A stretch of 64,000 nucleotides of DNA from NCBI RefSeq assembly GCF_044647545.1, contig NZ_CP172818.1; one strand, given 5' to 3'. Position numbers and translations under genes: made by a program. Shown here piece after piece: positions 3,619 through 38,539 of the stretch (the first letter of the stretch is position 1; every line of letters begins with the position of its first letter). Source of the DNA: Escherichia coli. Lineage in GTDB: Bacteria > Pseudomonadota > Gammaproteobacteria > Enterobacterales > Enterobacteriaceae. The notes under the pieces were generated by a model that was not told the origin of the DNA, searched no databases, and saw nothing but the letters and a program-made list of their open reading frames with translations.

Positions 3619-4215
3619 ATGAAAAAACCGAATCATTCCGGCAGCGGCCAAATCCGCATTATTGGCGGGCAGTGGCGAGGCCGTAAACTCCCGGTTCCTG
3701 ATAGCCCAGGTCTGCGCCCCACCACCGACCGCGTACGCGAAACGTTGTTTAACTGGCTGGCTCCGGTCATTGTTGACGCCCAATGTCTGGATTGCTTCGC
3801 CGGAAGCGGCGCGCTGGGGCTGGAAGCGTTATCGCGCTACGCTGCGGGGGCCACGTTGATTGAGATGGATCGTGCGGTTTCTCAGCAGTTAATTAAGAAT
3901 CTGGCGACACTAAAAGCAGGCAATGCACGCGTGGTGAACAGCAACGCGATGTCATTCCTGGCGCAAAAAGGCACACCGCATAATATCGTGTTTGTCGATC
4001 CACCGTTCCGCCGTGGATTGTTAGAAGAGACGATAAATTTACTGGAAGATAACGGCTGGCTGGCTGACGAAGCCCTGATTTATGTCGAAAGCGAAGTCGA
4101 AAACGGTCTGCCCACTGTTCCGGCGAACTGGTCATTACATCGGGAAAAAGTGGCGGGTCAGGTGGCTTATCGGCTGTATCAACGCGAAGCACAAGGAGAA
4201 AGTGATGTTGATTAA
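3619..4215 (+). CDS. rsmD: 16S rRNA (guanine966-N2)-methyltransferase RsmD
   Basis: 198 aa; methyltransferase motifs (LDCFAGSG, VFVDPPF); divergent from ftsY. Confidence 0.93.
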   Translation: MKKPNHSGSGQIRIIGGQWRGRKLPVPDSPGLRPTTDRVRETLFNWLAPVIVDAQCLDCFAGSGALGLEALSRYAAGATLIEMDRAVSQQLIKNLATLKAGNARVVNSNAMSFLAQKGTPHNIVFVDPPFRRGLLEETINLLEDNGWLADEALIYVESEVENGLPTVPANWSLHREKVAGQVAYRLYQREAQGESDVD

Positions 4216-4474
4216 TATTGGACGTTTGTTAATGCTCTGCGTTTGGGGATTTTTAATCCTCAACCTGGTGCATCCCTTCCCGCGTCCGCTGAATATTTTT
4301 GTTAACGTGGCGCTGATTTTTACCGTGCTGATGCATGGTATGCAGCTGGCGCTATTGAAATCCACTTTGCCGAAAGATGGCCCGCAGATGACCACCGCCG
4401 AAAAGGTGCGGATTTTCCTTTTCGGCGTGTTTGAACTGCTGGTCTGGCAGAAGAAATTTAAAGTTAAAAAATAA
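4205..4474 (+). CDS. yhhL: Small inner-membrane protein YhhL
   Basis: 89 aa hydrophobic protein from ATG 4205 (GTG at 4202 also in frame); overlaps rsmD 3' end by 11 nt. Confidence 0.8.
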   Translation: MLINIGRLLMLCVWGFLILNLVHPFPRPLNIFVNVALIFTVLMHGMQLALLKSTLPKDGPQMTTAEKVRIFLFGVFELLVWQKKFKVKK

Positions 4475-4476
4475 CC

Positions 4477-4836
4477 TTATTGTTCGCCTACAAAGCTGAC
4501 AAAGCGCGTTCCTTTATAGCTCAGCGTACCTTTATCGCCCACTGTCAGGGCGTGGTACTGCTGGGCGTCGAGGCGAAACGTCTGCTCCATTCCTCCGCTT
4601 TGCGGTTTGAAGCTTGCCTCATAGCGCATACTGGTGCCTGCCGGAGTCACTTCCTGCTGGCGCGAACGGCGATCGTTAATCGGTTTTTCCCGCTTGTTGC
4701 TCACCACCACCAGCTTTTGCTGGAGCGGTGCCATATCATTATCAGCTTTTTCCCGTCGTTGTTGCATAAAACGAAACGATGCGGCGACGATGATTAAGCC
4801 AATGATAACAATAAAGAAAAGAGGTGGTTTACTCAT
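4477..4836 (-). CDS. yhhM: Uncharacterized membrane-anchored protein YhhM
   Basis: 119 aa ORF with single N-terminal TM helix; position between yhhL and yhhN. Confidence 0.85.
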   Translation of the reverse strand: MSKPPLFFIVIIGLIIVAASFRFMQQRREKADNDMAPLQQKLVVVSNKREKPINDRRSRQQEVTPAGTSMRYEASFKPQSGGMEQTFRLDAQQYHALTVGDKGTLSYKGTRFVSFVGEQ

Positions 4837-8442: not shown

Positions 8443-9108
8443 ATGAACGTTTTCTCGCAAACTCAACGCTATAAGGCGTTGTTCTGGTTATCGTTATTTC
8501 ATCTTCTGGTGATCACCTCCAGTAACTATCTGGTTCAGCTTCCCGTATCCATTTTTGGTTTCCATACCACCTGGGGCGCGTTTAGCTTTCCGTTTATTTT
8601 CCTTGCTACCGACCTGACTGTGCGTATTTTTGGCGCACCGCTGGCCCGTCGTATCATCTTTGCGGTGATGATCCCGGCGTTACTGATCTCCTACGTCATC
8701 TCGTCGCTGTTCTATATGGGTTCCTGGCAGGGATTCGGCGCGCTCGCCCACTTCAACCTGTTTGTCGCCCGTATCGCCACCGCCAGTTTCATGGCCTACG
8801 CGCTGGGGCAAATCCTCGACGTGCACGTTTTTAACCGCCTGCGTCAGAGTCGTCGCTGGTGGCTGGCACCGACGGCTTCCACCCTGTTTGGTAACGTCAG
8901 CGACACGCTGGCCTTCTTCTTCATTGCCTTCTGGCGTAGCCCGGATGCCTTTATGGCTGAACACTGGATGGAAATCGCGCTGGTCGATTACTGTTTCAAA
9001 GTGTTAATCAGTATCGTTTTCTTCCTGCCAATGTATGGCGTATTACTCAATATGCTGTTGAAAAGACTGGCAGATAAATCCGAAATCAACGCTTTGCAGG
9101 CGAGTTAA
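8443..9108 (+). CDS. yhhQ: Queuosine precursor transporter YhhQ
   Basis: 221 aa polytopic membrane ORF. Confidence 0.9.
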   Translation: MNVFSQTQRYKALFWLSLFHLLVITSSNYLVQLPVSIFGFHTTWGAFSFPFIFLATDLTVRIFGAPLARRIIFAVMIPALLISYVISSLFYMGSWQGFGALAHFNLFVARIATASFMAYALGQILDVHVFNRLRQSRRWWLAPTASTLFGNVSDTLAFFFIAFWRSPDAFMAEHWMEIALVDYCFKVLISIVFFLPMYGVLLNMLLKRLADKSEINALQAS

Positions 9109-9180
9109 AGGTTCGTTATCAGAGTTGTGATAAGATGGATGAATGAGCCGTTATGGCCGTTTATCGAAAGGAAGAAGTCA

Positions 9181-9738
9181 ATGCGCAATCTGGTTAAATA
9201 TGTCGGAATTGGCCTGCTGGTTATGGGGCTTGCGGCCTGTGATGATAAAGACACTAACGCTACGGCGCAGGGTTCAGTCGCGGAAAGTAACGCTACCGGG
9301 AATCCCGTCAACCTGCTTGATGGCAAGTTAAGTTTCTCGCTGCCAGCGGATATGACCGACCAGAGCGGTAAGCTGGGAACGCAGGCTAATAACATGCATG
9401 TCTGGTCCGACGCCACCGGGCAAAAAGCAGTCATCGTCATCATGGGCGATGATCCGAAAGAAGATCTGGCGGTGCTGGCGAAGCGCCTGGAAGATCAGCA
9501 ACGTAGCCGCGATCCGCAGCTGCAAGTGGTAACCAATAAAGCCATTGAGCTGAAAGGTCACAAAATGCAGCAGTTAGACAGCATTATCTCCGCGAAAGGC
9601 CAGACGGCGTACTCTTCCGTTATTCTGGGTAACGTGGGTAATCAACTGCTAACCATGCAAATTACGCTGCCCGCTGACGATCAGCAAAAAGCACAGACCA
9701 CCGCAGAAAACATCATTAATACGCTGGTTATTCAGTAA
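9181..9738 (+). CDS. dcrB: Periplasmic lipoprotein DcrB
   Basis: 185 aa from [11 protein letters not shown]; lipobox LAAC; longer ORF 9127.. is an upstream extension. Confidence 0.9.
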
Positions 9739-9741
9739 GTT

Positions 9742-10959
9742 TTAAGATGATGAGATGGCCTCAGGTACTTCCACCGGAGGCCGTTTTTTTAATCGCCACG
9801 TCAGTAATAACGCGATTGCGACCAGTCCCGCCGCCGCCAGATAAATCACCGGGACGCCCGCCCAACTCATCACCAGCCCAGCCAGTGGTCCGGTCACGCC
9901 AAGCGATAAATCCATAAATACGGTGTAAGTTGCCAGCGCCGCCCCCTGATTTTGCTGCGGAACCGCTTTTACCGCCACTACGCCCAATGCCGGGAACACC
10001 AGCGAAAACCCCGCCCCCGCGAGTAAGACGCCGATTTTCGCCATCCACGGCATAGTCGCCACGCCAACCAGTAGCAGGCCGATTATCTCAACGCTAAAGC
10101 AAATCATCGCCACGTTTAAGCCGCCGATACGGTTAATGCCGTTAGGAAATAACAAACGCGTACCGACAAACGCACAGCTAAACAGCGTCAGCGCGAAAGC
10201 CGCACCGTCCCAACCTTTAGCGTCATAAAACAGCGTGATAAAGGTGGCGATAACGCCAAATCCGGCGGAAGCCAGTGCCAGCGCCATACCGTACAGCCAG
10301 ACGCGCCCAAGCACCGCGCGAAACGGCAGCGGTTTGCCTTTACTGGCTTTTACCGTCGGACGCGGGATCGCCAACAAAATGGCCACCAGCGCCACGCCCA
10401 TAATGATTAACGCTAACGCCTGCAAGCCGCCCCAGTGATAAAACACGACACCTAACGGCGCACCCATCGCCATCGCCCCGTAAGTGACAATGCCGTTCCA
10501 CGAAATCACCCGCCCGATATGCAGCGAACCAACCACGCCAACGCCCCATAGGGTCGATCCCGTTCCGGCAAAACTTTGCCCAATCCCAAGGATCACGCGC
10601 CCCAGGCACAGTAATAACAGGCTGATGACGGGCAGACTGGCGGTTAATCCTGCCGTCAGATACCCCAAACCGCTCAAAAAGCAGCCGCATAAACCGAAGA
10701 CGACAATCTTTTTGGGTCCCAGCAAATCGGCGTAACGTCCGGCATGAGGGCGGCTCAGCAAGGTGGCGAAATATTGCAGGCTGATAACCAATCCTGCCCA
10801 GAAAGCGCTAAAGCCCATCACATCATGGACATAGCCCGGTAATACAGCGAGCGGCAACCCGATGGTGAGGTAGCTGGCGAAGTTAAACATGACAATGGAG
10901 ACAATGCGCAAATTCAGGCGCAATCCGTTTAGCGCGGGTTCGGCTACGGGTTCGGGCAT
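9742..10959 (-). CDS. yhhS: MFS transporter YhhS
   Basis: 405 aa from MPEPVAEPALNG; 12-TM MFS-like hydrophobicity; stop only 3 nt from dcrB stop. Confidence 0.9.
   Translation of the reverse strand: MPEPVAEPALNGLRLNLRIVSIVMFNFASYLTIGLPLAVLPGYVHDVMGFSAFWAGLVISLQYFATLLSRPHAGRYADLLGPKKIVVFGLCGCFLSGLGYLTAGLTASLPVISLLLLCLGRVILGIGQSFAGTGSTLWGVGVVGSLHIGRVISWNGIVTYGAMAMGAPLGVVFYHWGGLQALALIIMGVALVAILLAIPRPTVKASKGKPLPFRAVLGRVWLYGMALALASAGFGVIATFITLFYDAKGWDGAAFALTLFSCAFVGTRLLFPNGINRIGGLNVAMICFSVEIIGLLLVGVATMPWMAKIGVLLAGAGFSLVFPALGVVAVKAVPQQNQGAALATYTVFMDLSLGVTGPLAGLVMSWAGVPVIYLAAAGLVAIALLLTWRLKKRPPVEVPEAISSS
9757..9790 (+). terminator. Rho-independent terminator for dcrB, embedded in the 3' coding end of convergent yhhS
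   Basis: GGCCTC...GAGGCC stem followed by a 7-nt T run (9784..9790). Confidence 0.55.
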
Positions 10960-11090
10960 GAGGATCACCACATTTTTACAACAGTGTTTCATTTTTACCA
11001 CGTGCTGACGTGAAAATCAGCAGTAAGAATCAGAATATTGCTGGCGTGACTCCCGCTACACTTAATACAAAAAGTCACAAGGAAGCCCCA

Positions 11091-12140
11091 ATGGAAACCC
11101 CTCAACCCGATAAAACGGGCATGCACATTCTGCTCAAGCTGGCCTCGCTGGTGGTGATCCTCGCGGGAATTCACGCAGCGGCAGATATCATTGTGCAGCT
11201 GTTACTGGCGCTGTTTTTTGCCATCGTCCTCAACCCGCTCGTCACCTGGTTTATTCGTCGGGGAGTACAACGCCCCGTTGCCATTACGATTGTGGTGGTG
11301 GTGATGCTGATCGCACTAACCGCGCTGGTCGGCGTACTGGCGGCATCGTTTAACGAATTTATCTCTATGCTGCCGAAGTTTAATAAGGAGCTGACGCGCA
11401 AACTTTTTAAATTGCAGGAGATGTTGCCTTTTCTTAATTTGCATATGTCGCCGGAGCGAATACTGCAGCGGATGGACTCGGAAAAAATGGTTACCTTCAC
11501 CACGGCGCTAATGACCGGGCTTTCCGGGGCAATGGCGAGCGTGCTTTTGCTGGTGATGACCGTAGTTTTCATGCTGTTTGAAGTGCGCCACGTCCCTTAC
11601 AAAATGCGTTTTGCGTTGAATAATCCACAGATTCACATCGCCGGACTACACCGCGCCTTAAAAGGTGTTTCGCACTATCTTGCATTGAAGACACTGCTAA
11701 GTTTATGGACAGGCGTAATCGTCTGGCTGGGGCTGGCGCTAATGGGCGTACAGTTTGCGCTGATGTGGGCAGTACTGGCGTTTTTGCTCAACTACGTGCC
11801 CAATATCGGCGCGGTAATTTCCGCCGTACCGCCAATGATTCAGGTGCTGCTGTTTAATGGCGTTTACGAATGTATTCTGGTCGGCGCATTGTTTTTAGTG
11901 GTCCATATGGTCATCGGCAATATTTTAGAACCACGGATGATGGGCCATCGCCTGGGGATGTCCACCATGGTGGTATTTCTTTCATTGTTAATTTGGGGAT
12001 GGCTGCTCGGCCCGGTAGGGATGCTACTTTCGGTACCATTAACCAGCGTGTGTAAAATCTGGATGGAAACCACCAAAGGCGGTAGCAAACTGGCGATTTT
12101 ACTGGGACCGGGCAGACCGAAAAGTCGATTACCGGGATGA
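11091..12140 (+). CDS. yhhT: AI-2E family (PerM-like) transporter YhhT
   Basis: 349 aa from METPQPDKTG; polytopic membrane protein. Confidence 0.88.
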   Translation: METPQPDKTGMHILLKLASLVVILAGIHAAADIIVQLLLALFFAIVLNPLVTWFIRRGVQRPVAITIVVVVMLIALTALVGVLAASFNEFISMLPKFNKELTRKLFKLQEMLPFLNLHMSPERILQRMDSEKMVTFTTALMTGLSGAMASVLLLVMTVVFMLFEVRHVPYKMRFALNNPQIHIAGLHRALKGVSHYLALKTLLSLWTGVIVWLGLALMGVQFALMWAVLAFLLNYVPNIGAVISAVPPMIQVLLFNGVYECILVGALFLVVHMVIGNILEPRMMGHRLGMSTMVVFLSLLIWGWLLGPVGMLLSVPLTSVCKIWMETTKGGSKLAILLGPGRPKSRLPG

Positions 12141-35199: not shown

Positions 35200-36402
35200 T
35201 CAGGACGACTTCGCTGCAATCAAATCCTGCGCACAAGCCCACGCACTCGACCACGCCCACTGGAAATTATAGCCCCCCAGCCAGCCGGTGACGTCCATCA
35301 CTTCGCCGATGAAGTACAGCCCAGGCACTTTGCGCGCTTCCATCGTCCGTGAAGAGAGTTCGTTGGTGTCCACGCCGCCGAGCGTCACTTCAGCAGTACG
35401 ATAGCCTTCAGTGCCGTTGGGTTGTACGCGCCAGTCGGTCAATGTGCTAATCAGTGCCTGTTGGTCACGCACGTTGAGCTGTTTTAGCGAAACATCCGGG
35501 ATTTGCCCGAGTTGCTGTAAACGTTCAACCAACCGCTTCGGTAGATGAACCGCCAGTGTGTTTTTCAGGCTCTGATTCGGATGTGCATTACGCTGCTCAT
35601 TCAGGAAGGTTTCGAGGTCCACATCCGGTAGCAGATTGATACTGACAAATTCACCCGGTTGCCAGTAGCTGGAAATTTGCAACACCGCCGGTCCAGATAA
35701 GCCGCGGTGGGTGAAGAGTAAGTTCTCACGGAAAACGGTGCCGTTTTCAGCGGTAATCACGGAAGGCACCGCCACGCCCGCCAGCACCTGTAACTCTTCG
35801 AGCAACGGTTTATGCAGAGTGAATGGCACCAGGCCCGCGCGGGTCGGCAGCACGTTGAGGCCAAATTGTTCGGCAATCTTATAACCAAACGGCGACGCGC
35901 CCAGCCCTGGCATTGACAGTCCACCGGTCGCGATGACCAGCTTTTCGCAACCGACAGTCATGCCGTTCAGTTCAAGCGTGAAGCCTGTTTCATCCTTCGC
36001 CACACTCAGCACTTCGCTACGCAATCTGAAGGTCACATTGCCCTTCTCGCACTCATCCACCAGCATGTCGACAATCTGCTGCGCGGAGTCATCGCAGAAG
36101 AGTTGCCCTAACGTTTTCTCGTGCCAGGTGATGCCGTGTTTATTGACCAGATCAATGAAATCCCACTGGGTAAAACGCGCGAGTGCAGACTTACAAAAAT
36201 GCGGATTCTGGCTCAGATAAGCGCCCGGTTCGACATAAAGGTTGGTAAAGTTGCAGCGCCCACCGCCAGACATGAGGATTTTGCGCCCTGGTTTTTTACC
36301 ATTATCGATCAGCAGAACCCGGCGTCCTGCCTGACCTGCCAGCGCAGAACAGAACATACCTGCCGCACCAGCGCCTATAATAATGGCATCAAACCTTTCC
36401 AC
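35200..36402 (-). CDS. yhiN: FAD/NAD(P)-binding protein YhiN (HI0933-like)
   Basis: 400 aa; N-terminal dinucleotide fold IIGAGAAG. Confidence 0.9.
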   Translation of the reverse strand: MERFDAIIIGAGAAGMFCSALAGQAGRRVLLIDNGKKPGRKILMSGGGRCNFTNLYVEPGAYLSQNPHFCKSALARFTQWDFIDLVNKHGITWHEKTLGQLFCDDSAQQIVDMLVDECEKGNVTFRLRSEVLSVAKDETGFTLELNGMTVGCEKLVIATGGLSMPGLGASPFGYKIAEQFGLNVLPTRAGLVPFTLHKPLLEELQVLAGVAVPSVITAENGTVFRENLLFTHRGLSGPAVLQISSYWQPGEFVSINLLPDVDLETFLNEQRNAHPNQSLKNTLAVHLPKRLVERLQQLGQIPDVSLKQLNVRDQQALISTLTDWRVQPNGTEGYRTAEVTLGGVDTNELSSRTMEARKVPGLYFIGEVMDVTGWLGGYNFQWAWSSAWACAQDLIAAKSS

Positions 36403-36633
36403 GTTGCGCTCCTCTAAGAAAAAACGGGCGTGAATTGTAAAGATTCCTCAGTGGTCGCACCAGCATCAATATTACTAAAAGGAAGTATTTGCCTGAATTA
36501 TATAAGATAATTATTTTTTGAGTGAAATCCATACAGGAGGCAAATCAAAAAAAGTCTATATTTCACTTTGCCCGCGCCGCGAAAGTCACTGATAATGCGC
36601 CGCGTTCATGTCCTCAAAATGGCGTAACGTCCT

Positions 36634-38133
36634 ATGCTACATTTGTTTGCTGGCCTGGATTTGCATACCGGGCTGTTATTATTGCTTGCACTGGCTTTTG
36701 TGCTGTTCTACGAAGCCATCAATGGTTTCCATGACACAGCCAACGCCGTGGCAACCGTTATCTATACCCGCGCGATGCGTTCTCAGCTCGCCGTGGTTAT
36801 GGCGGCGGTGTTCAACTTTTTGGGTGTTTTGCTGGGTGGTCTGAGTGTTGCCTATGCCATTGTGCATATGCTGCCGACGGATCTGCTGCTTAATATGGGA
36901 TCGTCTCATGGCCTTGCCATGGTGTTCTCTATGTTGCTGGCGGCGATTATCTGGAACCTGGGTACCTGGTACTTTGGTTTACCTGCATCCAGCTCTCATA
37001 CGCTGATTGGCGCGATCATCGGGATTGGTTTAACCAATGCGTTGATGACCGGGACGTCAGTGGTGGATGCACTCAATATCCCGAAAGTATTAAGTATTTT
37101 CGGTTCTCTGATCGTTTCCCCTATTGTCGGCCTGGTGTTTGCTGGCGGTCTGATTTTCTTGCTGCGCCGCTACTGGAGCGGCACCAAGAAACGCGCCCGT
37201 ATCCACCTGACCCCAGCGGAGCGTGAAAAGAAAGACGGCAAGAAAAAGCCGCCGTTCTGGACGCGTATTGCGCTGATCCTTTCCGCTATCGGCGTGGCGT
37301 TTTCGCACGGCGCGAACGATGGTCAGAAAGGCATTGGTCTGGTTATGTTGGTATTGATTGGCGTCGCACCAGCAGGCTTCGTGGTGAACATGAATGCCAC
37401 TGGCTACGAAATCACCCGTACCCGTGATGCCATCAACAACGTGGAAGCTTACTTTGAGCAGCACCCTGCGCTGCTGAAACAGGCTACCGGTGCTGATCAG
37501 TTAGTACCGGCTCCGGAAGCTGGCGCAACGCAACCTGCGGAGTTCCATTGCCATCCGTCGAATACCATTAACGCGCTCAACCGCCTGAAAGGCATGTTGA
37601 CTACTGATGTGGAAAGCTACGACAAGCTGTCGCTTGATCAACGTAGCCAGATGCGCCGCATTATGCTGTGCGTTTCTGACACTATCGATAAAGTGGTGAA
37701 GATGCCTGGTGTGAGTGCTGACGATCAGCGTCTGTTGAAGAAACTGAAGTCCGACATGCTTAGCACCATCGAGTACGCGCCGGTGTGGATCATCATGGCG
37801 GTCGCGCTGGCGTTAGGTATCGGTACGATGATTGGCTGGCGTCGTGTGGCAACGACTATCGGTGAGAAAATCGGTAAGAAAGGCATGACCTACGCTCAGG
37901 GGATGTCTGCCCAGATGACGGCGGCAGTGTCTATCGGCCTGGCAAGTTATACCGGGATGCCGGTTTCCACTACTCACGTACTCTCCTCTTCTGTCGCGGG
38001 GACGATGGTGGTAGATGGCGGCGGCTTACAGCGTAAAACCGTAACCAGTATTCTGATGGCCTGGGTATTTACCCTTCCGGCTGCGGTACTGCTTTCCGGC
38101 GGGCTGTACTGGCTCTCCTTGCAGTTCCTGTAA
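36634..38133 (+). CDS. pitA: Low-affinity inorganic phosphate transporter PitA
   Basis: 499 aa polytopic ORF with GANDGQKG motif. Confidence 0.95.
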
Positions 38134-38147
38134 TCGTACGCACCAAA

Positions 38148-38180
38148 ACGAGCGGGTCAGTTTACTGGCCCGCTTTTTTT
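38148..38180. terminator. Hairpin terminator between convergent pitA and uspB
   Basis: AGCGGGTCAG...CTGGCCCGCT stem flanked by A run upstream and T run downstream. Confidence 0.6.
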
Positions 38181-38203
38181 ATGCGTCATTATTGCTGAAG
38201 TGC

Positions 38204-38539
38204 TTAATGCCAAATCATCAATGCAATCAGGCTGACCACCACCAGACCACACAATGCGCTGGTCAGAATAAACTGCCGACGCACCCGCTCACAGCGGCGA
38301 ATAAACTCATCATCGTGATGATCGCGATAACGTTGGGCATAGATATACCAAACGAGACGCACCTGTTTGTTGGGTTGGCCATGTGAGGTAAAAAAGCCCC
38401 CTCCATCAACATATTGATAGAGCAATGGATCGCAGTTACGCAGTACCACTAACAACGCGCGTAGTGATGAGAAATAGCGCGCCATGTTAACAATGCAAAC
38501 GACACATAAAGCCCAAAATAATGCGACGGTGCTTATCAT
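38204..38539 (-). CDS. uspB: Universal stress protein B
   Basis: 111 aa two-TM ORF divergent from uspA. Confidence 0.93.

What the first reader, a model, noticed from the sequence alone, without database searches (positions are those of the whole stretch)
9736..9790. Convergent dcrB and yhhS stop 3 nt apart with a terminator inside the yhhS coding end
The dcrB stop (9736..9738) and the yhhS stop (9742..9744, minus strand) are separated by 3 nt, and a hairpin plus T7 run at 9757..9790 lies within the last ~15 codons of yhhS. Transcription of one gene must run into the other's coding sequence, a layout that invites transcriptional interference or antisense effects.
Basis: seen in the sequence. 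Interest (0 to 1): 0.3.

Follow-up and report, generated by a model that had tools for sequence, protein, structure and literature searches.

The report
dcrB terminator inside yhhS coding tail
Two E. coli genes that face each other end 3 bases apart, and the stop signal for transcribing one (dcrB) sits inside the last 15 codons of the other (yhhS); this is real and strongly conserved, but it is a common layout and this pair is already catalogued.

Summary
dcrB (9181..9738, +) and yhhS (9742..10992, -) have stop codons 3 nt apart. A GC-rich hairpin (9757..9782) followed by T7 (9784..9790) lies in the last 15 codons of yhhS.

The hairpin is the Rho-independent terminator of dcrB:
- It is kept in about 60 Enterobacteriaceae species, including species where yhhS is absent.
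- 7 of its 12 base pairs show compensatory changes.
- G.U wobbles favour the + strand, 48 against 4.
- Synonymous sites of yhhS under the outer stem and T-tract are nearly frozen, while the amino acids under the loop vary freely.

So the YhhS tail KK-RPP-xxxx-EA is largely a translation of the terminator's opposite strand.

The hairpin is not bidirectional: there is no U-tract on the minus strand, and it lies upstream of the yhhS stop. Published bicyclomycin data (Adams 2021) place Rho termination regions about 450 nt into antisense dcrB and about 230 nt into antisense yhhS.

ExcludonFinder (NAR 2025) already lists dcrB-yhhS among 165 convergent overlapping pairs in E. coli MG1655, 146 of which have such overlapping terminators. 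yhhL/yhhM, 5 kb away in this window, has its stops 2 nt apart.

Regulatory interference between the two genes is untested. Verdict: ordinary, low interest.

The parts
9181..9738 (+). dcrB coding sequence (185 aa lipoprotein, Pfam DcrB); stop TAA at 9736..9738
   Evidence: ORF list, RefSeq annotation, Pfam PF08786 at E = 5e-30
9739..9741 (.). 3-nt spacer (GTT) between the two stop codons
   Evidence: Sequence. The spacer is 0-6 nt in about 45 of the species examined.
9742..10992 (-). yhhS coding sequence (MFS transporter; 416 aa by the PGAP start; the K-12 annotation starts at the equivalent of 10959); stop at 9742..9744
   Evidence: Pfam MFS_1 covers residues 36-362 only, so the tail lies outside the domain.
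9757..9782 (+). Terminator hairpin of dcrB: 6-bp GC outer stem, 1x1 mismatch, 3-bp inner stem, 6-nt loop. The flanking 9756/9783 add a U.G pair here (C-G in K-12).
   Evidence: Folds, inverted repeat. In 50 species, 93.5% of cells are paired and 7 of 12 pairs show compensatory changes. There are 48 G.U cells on + against 4 A.C cells.
9784..9790 (+). T7 tract (U-tract of the dcrB terminator). On the minus strand, 9784..9789 are the Lys-Lys codons AAA AAA of YhhS, and 9790 belongs to Leu TTA.
   Evidence: Sequence. T6 is invariant in 50 species. AAA AAA is found in 45 of 45 species, never AAG.
9745..9789 (-). YhhS C-terminal tail KKRPPVEVPEAISSS, read from the opposite strand of the terminator. 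RPP and EA come from the two stem arms; VEVP comes from the loop and inner stem.
   Evidence: Translation. Synonymous sites under the arms are frozen, while the loop amino acids are only 31-58% conserved.
9791..10130 (+). C-rich, G-poor untranslated stretch antisense to yhhS, immediately after the terminator. It is the likely Rho loading and backstop region for dcrB read-through. The published Rho region peak, K-12 3610794, corresponds to window ~10020.
   Evidence: C/G is 1.5-2.1 with 35-44% C. Adams 2021 supplement 2: Rho score 7.24, p = 1e-15. The resolution of that method is coarse (800-nt windows).
9181..9741 (-). Antisense-dcrB stretch that yhhS transcripts must enter. The published Rho termination region peak, K-12 3610066, corresponds to window ~9292.
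   Evidence: No terminator-like site on the minus strand below 9742. Adams 2021 supplement 2: Rho score 3.23, p = 9e-6. C/G rises to 1.5-2.9 only 440-640 nt past the yhhS stop.

Best explanation
The hairpin plus T7 at 9757..9790 is the Rho-independent terminator of dcrB. It is an old, selected element of the dcrB transcription unit.

The convergent yhhS reading frame runs through it on the other strand and stops at the first in-frame stop beyond it, 3 nt from the dcrB stop. As a result, the last ~15 codons of yhhS are dictated mostly by the terminator:
- T7 is read as Lys-Lys.
- The two stem arms are read as Arg-Pro-Pro and Glu-Ala.
- The loop gives a free-varying linker.

Most dcrB transcripts therefore end about 50 nt inside the yhhS coding end (inferred; no mapped 3' end was found). 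Read-through RNA is untranslated and C-rich, and Rho stops it a few hundred nt further on (published bicyclomycin data).

yhhS has no intrinsic terminator. Its polymerase passes the hairpin while ribosomes are still translating it, then runs antisense into dcrB until Rho terminates it roughly 450 nt downstream (published bicyclomycin data; coarse resolution).

The two mRNAs are thus obligatorily complementary over at least ~50 nt. Whether this has any regulatory consequence is unknown.
For: 1. Anatomy: a stable GC-rich hairpin is followed directly by T7, 18 nt after the dcrB stop.

2. Conservation: the motif CGGCCTCC..loop..GGGGGCCG-T7-A sits at the same place after dcrB in nearly all of 80 species-representative loci.

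3. Independence from yhhS: the hairpin is retained where yhhS is absent. In Enterobacter cloacae dcrB is followed directly by yhhT, and in Yokenella by arnF.

4. Covariation on an ungapped 50-species alignment: 93.5% of cells are paired, 7 of 12 pairs have changes on both sides, and 0 of 500 shuffles reach this. Slid registers give only 36-53% paired.

5. Strand: there are 48 G.U cells on the + strand against 4 A.C cells, which would be the wobbles on the - strand.

6. Frozen synonymous sites in yhhS under the arms and T-tract: AAA AAA 45/45, CGG 40/40, CCG 36/37, GAG 42/43, GCC 40/41. The baseline majority fraction at conserved 4-fold codons of the same gene is 0.67, with 1 of 42 at 0.9 or above. 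Amino acids under the loop are only 31-58% conserved.

7. Within E. coli (5,426 genomes), the loop and inner stem occur as several alleles that change the YhhS tail (VEVP / EHVP). The outer stem (apart from one A/G site that keeps the pair, U-A or U.G) and T7 are the same in all allele classes examined.

8. Floating stop: the yhhS stop lies in the hairpin loop in Kluyvera, and 0-6 nt from the dcrB stop in most genera.

9. Rho termination regions are reported on both strands beyond the junction (Adams et al. 2021, PMC7815308, supplement 2). The composition fits, especially on the + strand.

10. RNA-seq overlap for this pair is catalogued in ExcludonFinder (PMC12288877).
Against: - No experimentally mapped 3' end at the U-tract was found. 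The Term-seq table of Adams 2021, as held, has no entry at K-12 36105xx; its only dcrB entry is an ORF-internal end at 3609992. Other 3'-end data sets (Dar & Sorek 2018, Ju 2019) could not be consulted.
- A significant Rho signal on the + strand just downstream means the terminator is not fully efficient, or that other + strand transcripts arise inside yhhS.
- The Rho positions come from 800-nt window comparisons, so the 230 and 450 nt distances are approximate.
- Covariation counts are not phylogenetically independent.
- In Salmonella enterica subsp. arizonae the hairpin is weakened (-7.8 kcal/mol) although dcrB is intact.
- Minus-strand composition just past the yhhS stop is not C-rich for the first ~100 nt.
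Confidence: 0.85

Rival explanations
1. The hairpin is a shared bidirectional terminator that ends both dcrB and yhhS transcripts, as described for many convergent pairs.
For: - The reverse strand also folds well: -17.5 kcal/mol, z = -4.7.
- Convergent pairs often share one hairpin, and polymerase collisions at a stem-loop can enforce termination (Wang et al. 2022 bioRxiv abstract).
- Species with a 60-260 nt spacer (Kosakonia, Atlantibacter) do carry a different A-tract/hairpin/T-tract element between the two genes, and it looks bidirectional.
Against: - On the minus strand the hairpin is preceded by A7 and followed by AUCUCAUCAUCUU, with only 3 U in the first 8 nt, so there is no U-tract.
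- It lies 13 nt upstream of the yhhS stop codon. Termination there would give mRNAs without a stop codon.
- It is being translated when transcribed.
- The wobble asymmetry (48 against 4) favours the + strand.
- A Rho-dependent region is reported about 450 nt further on the minus strand.
Confidence: 0.07
2. The sequence is conserved because the YhhS C-terminal tail is a functional peptide. The hairpin and T-run are by-products of coding for KKRPP...EA...SSS.
For: - KK after the last transmembrane helix fits the positive-inside rule, and WRLK is kept even in species without the overlap.
- SSS is kept with one synonymous change between Escherichia and Citrobacter.
Against: - The hairpin and T7 persist where yhhS is deleted.
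- Synonymous positions are frozen, which protein selection does not predict.
- Paired positions change together while the amino acids change.
- The tail is truncated to KKRPLA in Kluyvera and replaced in Kosakonia.
- The tail lies outside the MFS domain.
Confidence: 0.03
3. The layout is a selected regulatory device (an excludon). Expression of one gene lowers the other through head-on polymerase collisions and RNase III cleavage of the mRNA duplex.
For: - The pair is in the ExcludonFinder core set, and the authors argue that overlapping terminators guarantee overlap whenever either gene is transcribed.
- The tight junction is kept across many genera.
- Long antisense read-through of yhhS into dcrB is implied by the Rho data.
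Against: - There are no data on reciprocal expression for this pair.
- 146 of 165 listed E. coli pairs share the feature, so it needs no special explanation.
- Several lineages have lost yhhS or separated the genes without losing the dcrB terminator.
- Both genes give low 3'-end read counts: 171 and 73 reads per 800 nt.
Confidence: 0.15

Closest known systems
Convergent excludons with 'overlapping terminators' (ExcludonFinder, NAR 2025, PMC12288877)
   Same: This is the same gene pair: dcrB-yhhS is in Table 1 of that paper. The terminator of one gene lies inside the transcription unit of the convergent neighbour, so the transcripts always overlap. 146 of 165 E. coli pairs in the list are of this type.
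   Different: The paper gives no anatomy for this pair. Here the terminator lies in the neighbour's coding sequence rather than only its 3' UTR, and the overlap is asymmetric: intrinsic termination for dcrB, Rho for yhhS. The mutual exclusion that defines an excludon is not shown for this pair.
Canonical Rho-independent (intrinsic) terminators of E. coli
   Same: GC-rich stem, short loop, U7 directly after the stem, placed shortly after a stop codon, with covarying stem pairs.
   Different: It is embedded in an opposite-strand reading frame, which freezes yhhS synonymous sites and shapes a protein tail. A 3' end at the U-tract has not been seen in the data available here.
Bidirectional terminators of convergent gene pairs (Ju et al. 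2019, from my own knowledge; Wang et al. 2022 bioRxiv)
   Same: Convergent genes, with one stem-loop at the boundary that could position polymerase collisions.
   Different: There is no A-tract/U-tract symmetry, and the hairpin lies inside one gene's coding sequence rather than between the stops. Relatives such as Kosakonia do have a symmetric element in a longer spacer.
yhhL/yhhM junction in the same window (4474/4477)
   Same: The convergent stops are 2 nt apart, and the pair is also in the ExcludonFinder list. A minus-strand hairpin lies inside the yhhL coding end, and a Term-seq 3' end (K-12 3605158, -) is classified as antisense to yhhL.
   Different: It is the mirror case (the minus-strand gene's hairpin lies in the plus-strand gene). 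That hairpin lacks a long U-tract, and its conservation was not examined.
Rho suppression of antisense read-through (Adams et al. 2021, PMC7815308; Peters et al. 2012, from my own knowledge)
   Same: Untranslated antisense RNA beyond a convergent gene end is terminated by Rho. Both strands at this junction have bicyclomycin-sensitive regions.
   Different: Nothing unusual. The positions are only approximate.

Membership tests
Rho-independent (intrinsic) terminator | Stable GC-rich stem-loop in the nascent RNA | tested here: met
   -15.9 kcal/mol for 30 nt with a 6-bp GC outer stem; z = -3.6 to -4.9
Rho-independent (intrinsic) terminator | U-rich tract directly 3' of the stem | tested here: met
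   T7 begins 1 nt after the GGCC arm, and that nucleotide pairs as U.G or C-G. T6 is invariant in 50 species.
Rho-independent (intrinsic) terminator | Located downstream of the stop codon of a gene on the same strand | tested here: met
   The hairpin starts 19 nt after the dcrB TAA. It holds the same position in relatives, including those without yhhS.
Rho-independent (intrinsic) terminator | Structure maintained by selection (covariation) | tested here: met
   7 of 12 pairs have double changes, 93.5% of cells are paired, and 0 of 500 shuffles reach this. Strand-specific wobbles are 48 against 4.
Rho-independent (intrinsic) terminator | Transcript 3' ends mapped at the U-tract; termination in vitro without Rho | tested here: inconclusive
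   The held Term-seq table of Adams 2021 has no entry at K-12 36105xx. Other data sets are not held. The table lists only ends above the authors' threshold.
Bidirectional terminator | A-tract 5' and U-tract 3' of the hairpin, so that both strands read hairpin + U-tract | tested here: not met
   The minus-strand tail is AUCUCAUCAUCUU, and the + strand 5' flank is GAUGAUGAGAU.
Bidirectional terminator | Hairpin downstream of both stop codons | tested here: not met
   The hairpin is 13 nt upstream of the yhhS stop, inside its coding sequence.
Convergent excludon | Overlapping transcripts from the two convergent genes | tested here: met
   This rests on literature, not my own data. The pair is listed in at least 50% of 58 MG1655 transcriptomes, and Rho regions lie beyond both gene ends.
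Convergent excludon | Reciprocal (mutually exclusive) expression, or RNase III processing of the duplex | not testable with these tools
   No expression or dsRNA data for this pair were found. The ExcludonFinder supplements are not held.
Rho-dependent terminator (for yhhS) | Read-through on Rho inhibition | tested here: met
   From literature: on the - strand at 3610066, downstream/upstream reads are 23/73 without bicyclomycin and 121/119 with it, p = 9e-6.
Rho-dependent terminator (for yhhS) | C-rich, G-poor untranslated loading region | tested here: inconclusive
   C/G is below 1 for the first ~100 nt past the stop, 1.0-1.5 at +100 to +340, and 1.5-2.9 at +440 to +640.
Programmed -1 ribosomal frameshift site (dnaX-like) | Slippery heptamer X XXY YYZ in frame | tested here: met
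   The frame UUA AAA AAA contains A AAA AAA.
Programmed -1 ribosomal frameshift site (dnaX-like) | Stimulatory structure 5-9 nt downstream of the heptamer | tested here: not met
   The hairpin starts 0-1 nt after A7. The -1 frame gives only KKTASGGST* here. A7 conservation is explained by the terminator's U-tract.

The most novel reading that the evidence does not exclude
The embedded terminator could make yhhS output depend on dcrB activity, in two ways.

1. Head-on collisions would be positioned by the hairpin, and RNase III would cleave the duplex of at least 50 bp, so dcrB transcription would lower yhhS expression and vice versa.

2. yhhS transcripts are terminated by Rho far downstream. 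If 3' exonucleases trim them back to the only strong hairpin, which lies 13 nt upstream of the stop codon, a fraction of yhhS mRNA would lose its stop codon. That fraction would be handled by tmRNA, giving a built-in cap on YhhS synthesis.

Neither effect is excluded by the evidence, and neither is supported by any data for this pair.
Probability: 0.1. Interest if true: 0.45.

Novelty: already known. Interest (0 to 1): 0.15.

Why it matters
It matters little as a discovery. The layout is visible in every E. coli annotation, the transcript overlap of this pair is already published, and terminators embedded in a convergent neighbour are the rule among such pairs.

It does make a clean, quantifiable textbook example of dual use of one DNA stretch. 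An RNA structure on one strand fixes the synonymous sites and even the amino-acid pattern (KK-RPP...EA) of a protein tail on the other strand. This is a caution for two kinds of analysis:
- Reading conservation at gene ends as protein-level selection.
- Recoding or 'refactoring' designs that alter synonymous sites near convergent gene ends.

Tried and rejected
- Rfam scan of 9000..11200 at E <= 1: no family. The hairpin is not a known RNA family or riboswitch.
- Repeat-element idea (REP/BIME-like): the GGCCTC..GRGGCC motif occurs once in the 64-kb window, so it is not a dispersed repeat. Pseudescherichia has what looked by eye like a REP-type palindrome (not tested against known REP sequences) inserted between the dcrB stop and the hairpin.
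- Loop inversion as the origin of the two E. coli loop alleles: rejected, because the reverse complement of one cassette does not give the other (sequences). All four combinations of flank and loop alleles exist, pointing to recombination between old alleles.
- -1 frameshift site (A AAA AAA plus hairpin): rejected on spacing (0-1 nt) and because the -1 product is trivial.
- Antisense ORF 9747..9917 (+, 56 aa): rejected as a gene. It starts after dcrB and runs through the terminator, so terminated transcripts would lack its stop.
- Direct 3'-end evidence:
  - The TERMITe supplements have no dcrB/yhhS entry.
  - The Dar & Sorek 2018 supplements are not held.
  - Ju et al. 2019 is not held.
  - The ExcludonFinder supplements are not held.
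  - The Adams 2021 Term-seq table has no end at the hairpin.
- The built-in terminator scan flagged only the 5-bp inner stem, and its counts were not above shuffles, so it was not used as evidence.
Full report
**1. Observation**

The window around 9100..10000 and the ORF list show dcrB on the + strand ending with TAA at 9736..9738. A long minus-strand ORF has its stop (TTA on +) at 9742..9744, leaving the 3-nt spacer GTT.

A 2-kb query across the junction (window 9100..11100) is 100% identical to several E. coli chromosomes and is present in 5,425 of 5,426 complete E. coli genomes. RefSeq annotates dcrB and yhhS 3 nt apart, both in one of these matching strains (whole-window map) and in K-12 MG1655, where dcrB is 3609955..3610512 and yhhS is 3610516..3611733. 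Pfam confirms DcrB and MFS_1; the MFS domain ends at residue 362 of 416, so the tail lies outside it.

The hairpin GGCCTC-A-GGT/ACTTCC/ACC-G-GAGGCC (9757..9782) is followed by G and T7 (9784..9790). It is the only inverted repeat in 9600..9950. It folds at -15.9 kcal/mol alone and -22.8 kcal/mol in context, with z-scores of -3.6 to -4.9. Only 3 of the 91 runs of T6 or longer in the window have an adjacent hairpin this stable.

**2. What it is**

Read on the minus strand, the terminator gives the end of YhhS: UUA AAA AAA CGG CCU CCG GUG GAA GUA CCU GAG GCC AUC UCA UCA UCU UAA, which is L K K R P P V E V P E A I S S S stop. The T7 run is Lys-Lys, the 3' arm is Arg-Pro-Pro, the 5' arm is Glu-Ala, and the loop and inner stem give VEVP.

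I fetched 80 orthologous loci, one per species, using DcrB as the query, and analysed the junction.
- In about 45 species the two stops are 0-6 nt apart. These span Escherichia, Citrobacter, Enterobacter, Lelliottia, Leclercia, Klebsiella, Trabulsiella, Buttiauxella, Phytobacter and Franconibacter.
- Nearly all carry CGGCCTCC..loop..GGGGGCCG-T7-A right after dcrB.
- The element is also present where yhhS is not next door. In Enterobacter cloacae dcrB is followed directly by yhhT on the same strand. In Yokenella it is followed by arnF. The hairpin therefore belongs to dcrB.
- In Kluyvera the yhhS stop lies in the hairpin loop, giving the tail KKRPLA.
- In Kosakonia and Atlantibacter the genes are 60-260 nt apart, yhhS ends early (WRLKQKPVLVG), and a different A-tract/hairpin/T-tract element sits in the spacer.

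The yhhS stop floats, while the dcrB terminator stays.

**3. Tests of selection on the RNA**

- Covariation: on an ungapped 50-species alignment, the 12-bp helix is paired in 93.5% of cells and 7 of 12 pairs show changes on both sides. None of 500 column shuffles reaches the observed values, and slid registers give 36-53% pairing. These counts are not phylogenetically independent, but the signal is large.
- Strand: G.U wobbles are 48 on the + strand, against 4 A.C cells that would be wobbles on the minus strand. The selected structure is therefore in the dcrB transcript.
- Frozen synonymous sites: in 45 species with yhhS, the sites under the arms and T-tract barely vary. AAA AAA is found in 45/45, CGG in 40/40, CCG in 36/37, GAG in 42/43 and GCC in 40/41. 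At conserved four-fold codons in the preceding 100 codons, the majority base reaches only 0.67 on average, and 1 of 42 reaches 0.9.
- The one tail position that toggles (Pro CCT/CCC) switches a U-A pair to U.G. Amino acids under the loop are only 31-58% conserved.
- Within E. coli, the loop and inner stem exist as distinct alleles. The K-12 type is identical in 3,884 genomes; the window type is identical in 146, with 207 more one base away. Recombinant combinations also occur. Apart from one A/G site in the 3' arm that keeps the pair as U-A or U.G, the outer stem and T7 do not differ between the allele classes examined, while the YhhS tail changes from VEVP..I to EHVP..A.

**4. How it most likely works**

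Shown:
- The anatomy and evolutionary maintenance of a + strand terminator hairpin with a U-tract.
- The absence of a U-tract on the minus strand.
- The position of the hairpin upstream of the yhhS stop.

Taken from the literature:
- Adams et al. 2021 (PMC7815308, supplement 2) list two bicyclomycin-sensitive termination regions beyond this junction.
  - On the + strand the peak is at 3610794, antisense to yhhS: 16 downstream and 171 upstream reads without drug, against 124 and 183 with drug (p = 1e-15).
  - On the minus strand the peak is at 3610066, antisense to dcrB: 23 and 73 reads, against 121 and 119 (p = 9e-6).
  - In window coordinates these are about 10020 and 9292, that is roughly 230 nt beyond T7 and 450 nt beyond the yhhS stop. 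The resolution is coarse.
- ExcludonFinder (PMC12288877) lists dcrB-yhhS among the 165 convergent overlapping pairs seen in at least half of 58 MG1655 transcriptomes. It reports that 146 of these have TransTermHP-predicted overlapping terminators.

Composition fits. The + strand beyond T7 is 35-44% C with C/G of 1.5-2.1 for about 340 nt. The minus strand becomes C-rich only 440-640 nt beyond the yhhS stop.

Inferred:
- Most dcrB transcripts end at the U-tract, about 50 nt inside yhhS, and Rho catches the leak.
- yhhS polymerase passes the hairpin while it is being translated and is stopped by Rho inside antisense dcrB.

I found no mapped 3' end at the U-tract. The held Term-seq table has none at 36105xx, and the other data sets were not available. 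This is the main gap.

**5. Rivals**

- A shared bidirectional terminator is unlikely. There is no minus-strand U-tract, the hairpin lies inside the yhhS coding sequence, the wobble asymmetry favours the + strand, and there is a Rho signal further down.
- Protein-level selection on the tail as the cause of conservation is contradicted by the frozen synonymous sites, by covariation that changes amino acids, by retention without yhhS, and by the truncated or replaced tails in Kluyvera and Kosakonia.
- A selected regulatory excludon is possible but unsupported for this pair. The feature is generic (146 of 165 pairs), and several lineages lost yhhS or separated the genes.
- A dnaX-like frameshift site (A AAA AAA plus hairpin) fails on spacing.

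**6. Comparison with what is known, and novelty**

This is a canonical intrinsic terminator overlapping the coding end of a convergent gene. The type is well known and this very pair is catalogued. The same window holds a second case: the yhhL and yhhM stops are 2 nt apart, with a minus-strand hairpin and a Term-seq 3' end inside yhhL. Two of the 9 convergent pairs in the first 42 kb of the window are 3 nt apart or less.

What my analysis adds is the evolutionary dissection: the terminator is ancestral, the YhhS tail is imposed by it, and synonymous sites are frozen. That is a nice illustration, not a new kind of system.

**Verdict**

The finding is ordinary and already known, and its interest is low.

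Noticed in passing
window 4400..4480 (yhhL 4205..4474 +, yhhM 4477..4836 -): This is a second tight convergent junction, with stops 2 nt apart. A minus-strand hairpin CGCCGAAAAGG..CCTTTTCGGCG (z = -4.1) lies inside the yhhL coding end. Adams 2021 Term-seq lists a 3' end at K-12 3605158 (-) classed as antisense to yhhL, and the pair is also in the ExcludonFinder list.
   Followed up: partly
window ~9218 (K-12 3609992, + strand): Published Term-seq reports a 3' end 37 nt into the dcrB reading frame, in the signal-peptide region, in two conditions. It is scored as not Rho-dependent, and no hairpin or U-tract is obvious there. It could be a processing or pause product.
   Followed up: no
L085 1540..2330 (E. 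coli strain E07, NZ_CM143880.1): An IS1 element is inserted in the 3' arm of the terminator hairpin, with a 9-bp target duplication CGGGGGCCG. This separates the intact hairpin from the T7 tract and makes the annotated yhhS frame run into IS1. It is a natural knock-out of the dcrB terminator.
   Followed up: partly
window 9766..9775 compared with K-12 (L002 2041..2050): The two main E. coli loop cassettes differ at 5 of 8 adjacent bases (GGTACTTCCACC against GGGACGTGTTCC), while the flanks are nearly identical. Both types also occur in other Escherichia species or clades, and all four flank/loop combinations exist. These look like old alleles shuffled by recombination.
   Followed up: partly
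window 38152..38180, + strand: A strong hairpin GCGGGTCAG/CTGGCCCGC (-16.3 kcal/mol) followed by T7 lies antisense inside the 5' coding part of prlC (36308..38350, -), upstream of rlmJ. Its role is unknown.
   Followed up: no
window 10959..11001, minus strand: The yhhS start is annotated differently: 416 aa in PGAP records (start at 10992), 405 aa in K-12 (equivalent to 10959), and the longest ORF starts at GTG 11001 (419 aa).
   Followed up: no
L044 3064..4274 (Salmonella enterica subsp. arizonae): yhhS matches in five pieces in different frames, so it is apparently a pseudogene. The dcrB hairpin is weakened to about -7.8 kcal/mol, while T7 is kept.
   Followed up: partly
L071 3059..3139 (Pseudescherichia vulneris): What looked by eye like a REP-type palindrome (GCCCGGCGGCGCGTTGCTTGCCGGGC; not tested against known REP sequences) sits between the dcrB stop and the conserved hairpin. 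The yhhS frame reads through the hairpin and stops at the edge of the insert, leaving 37 nt between the stops.
   Followed up: no
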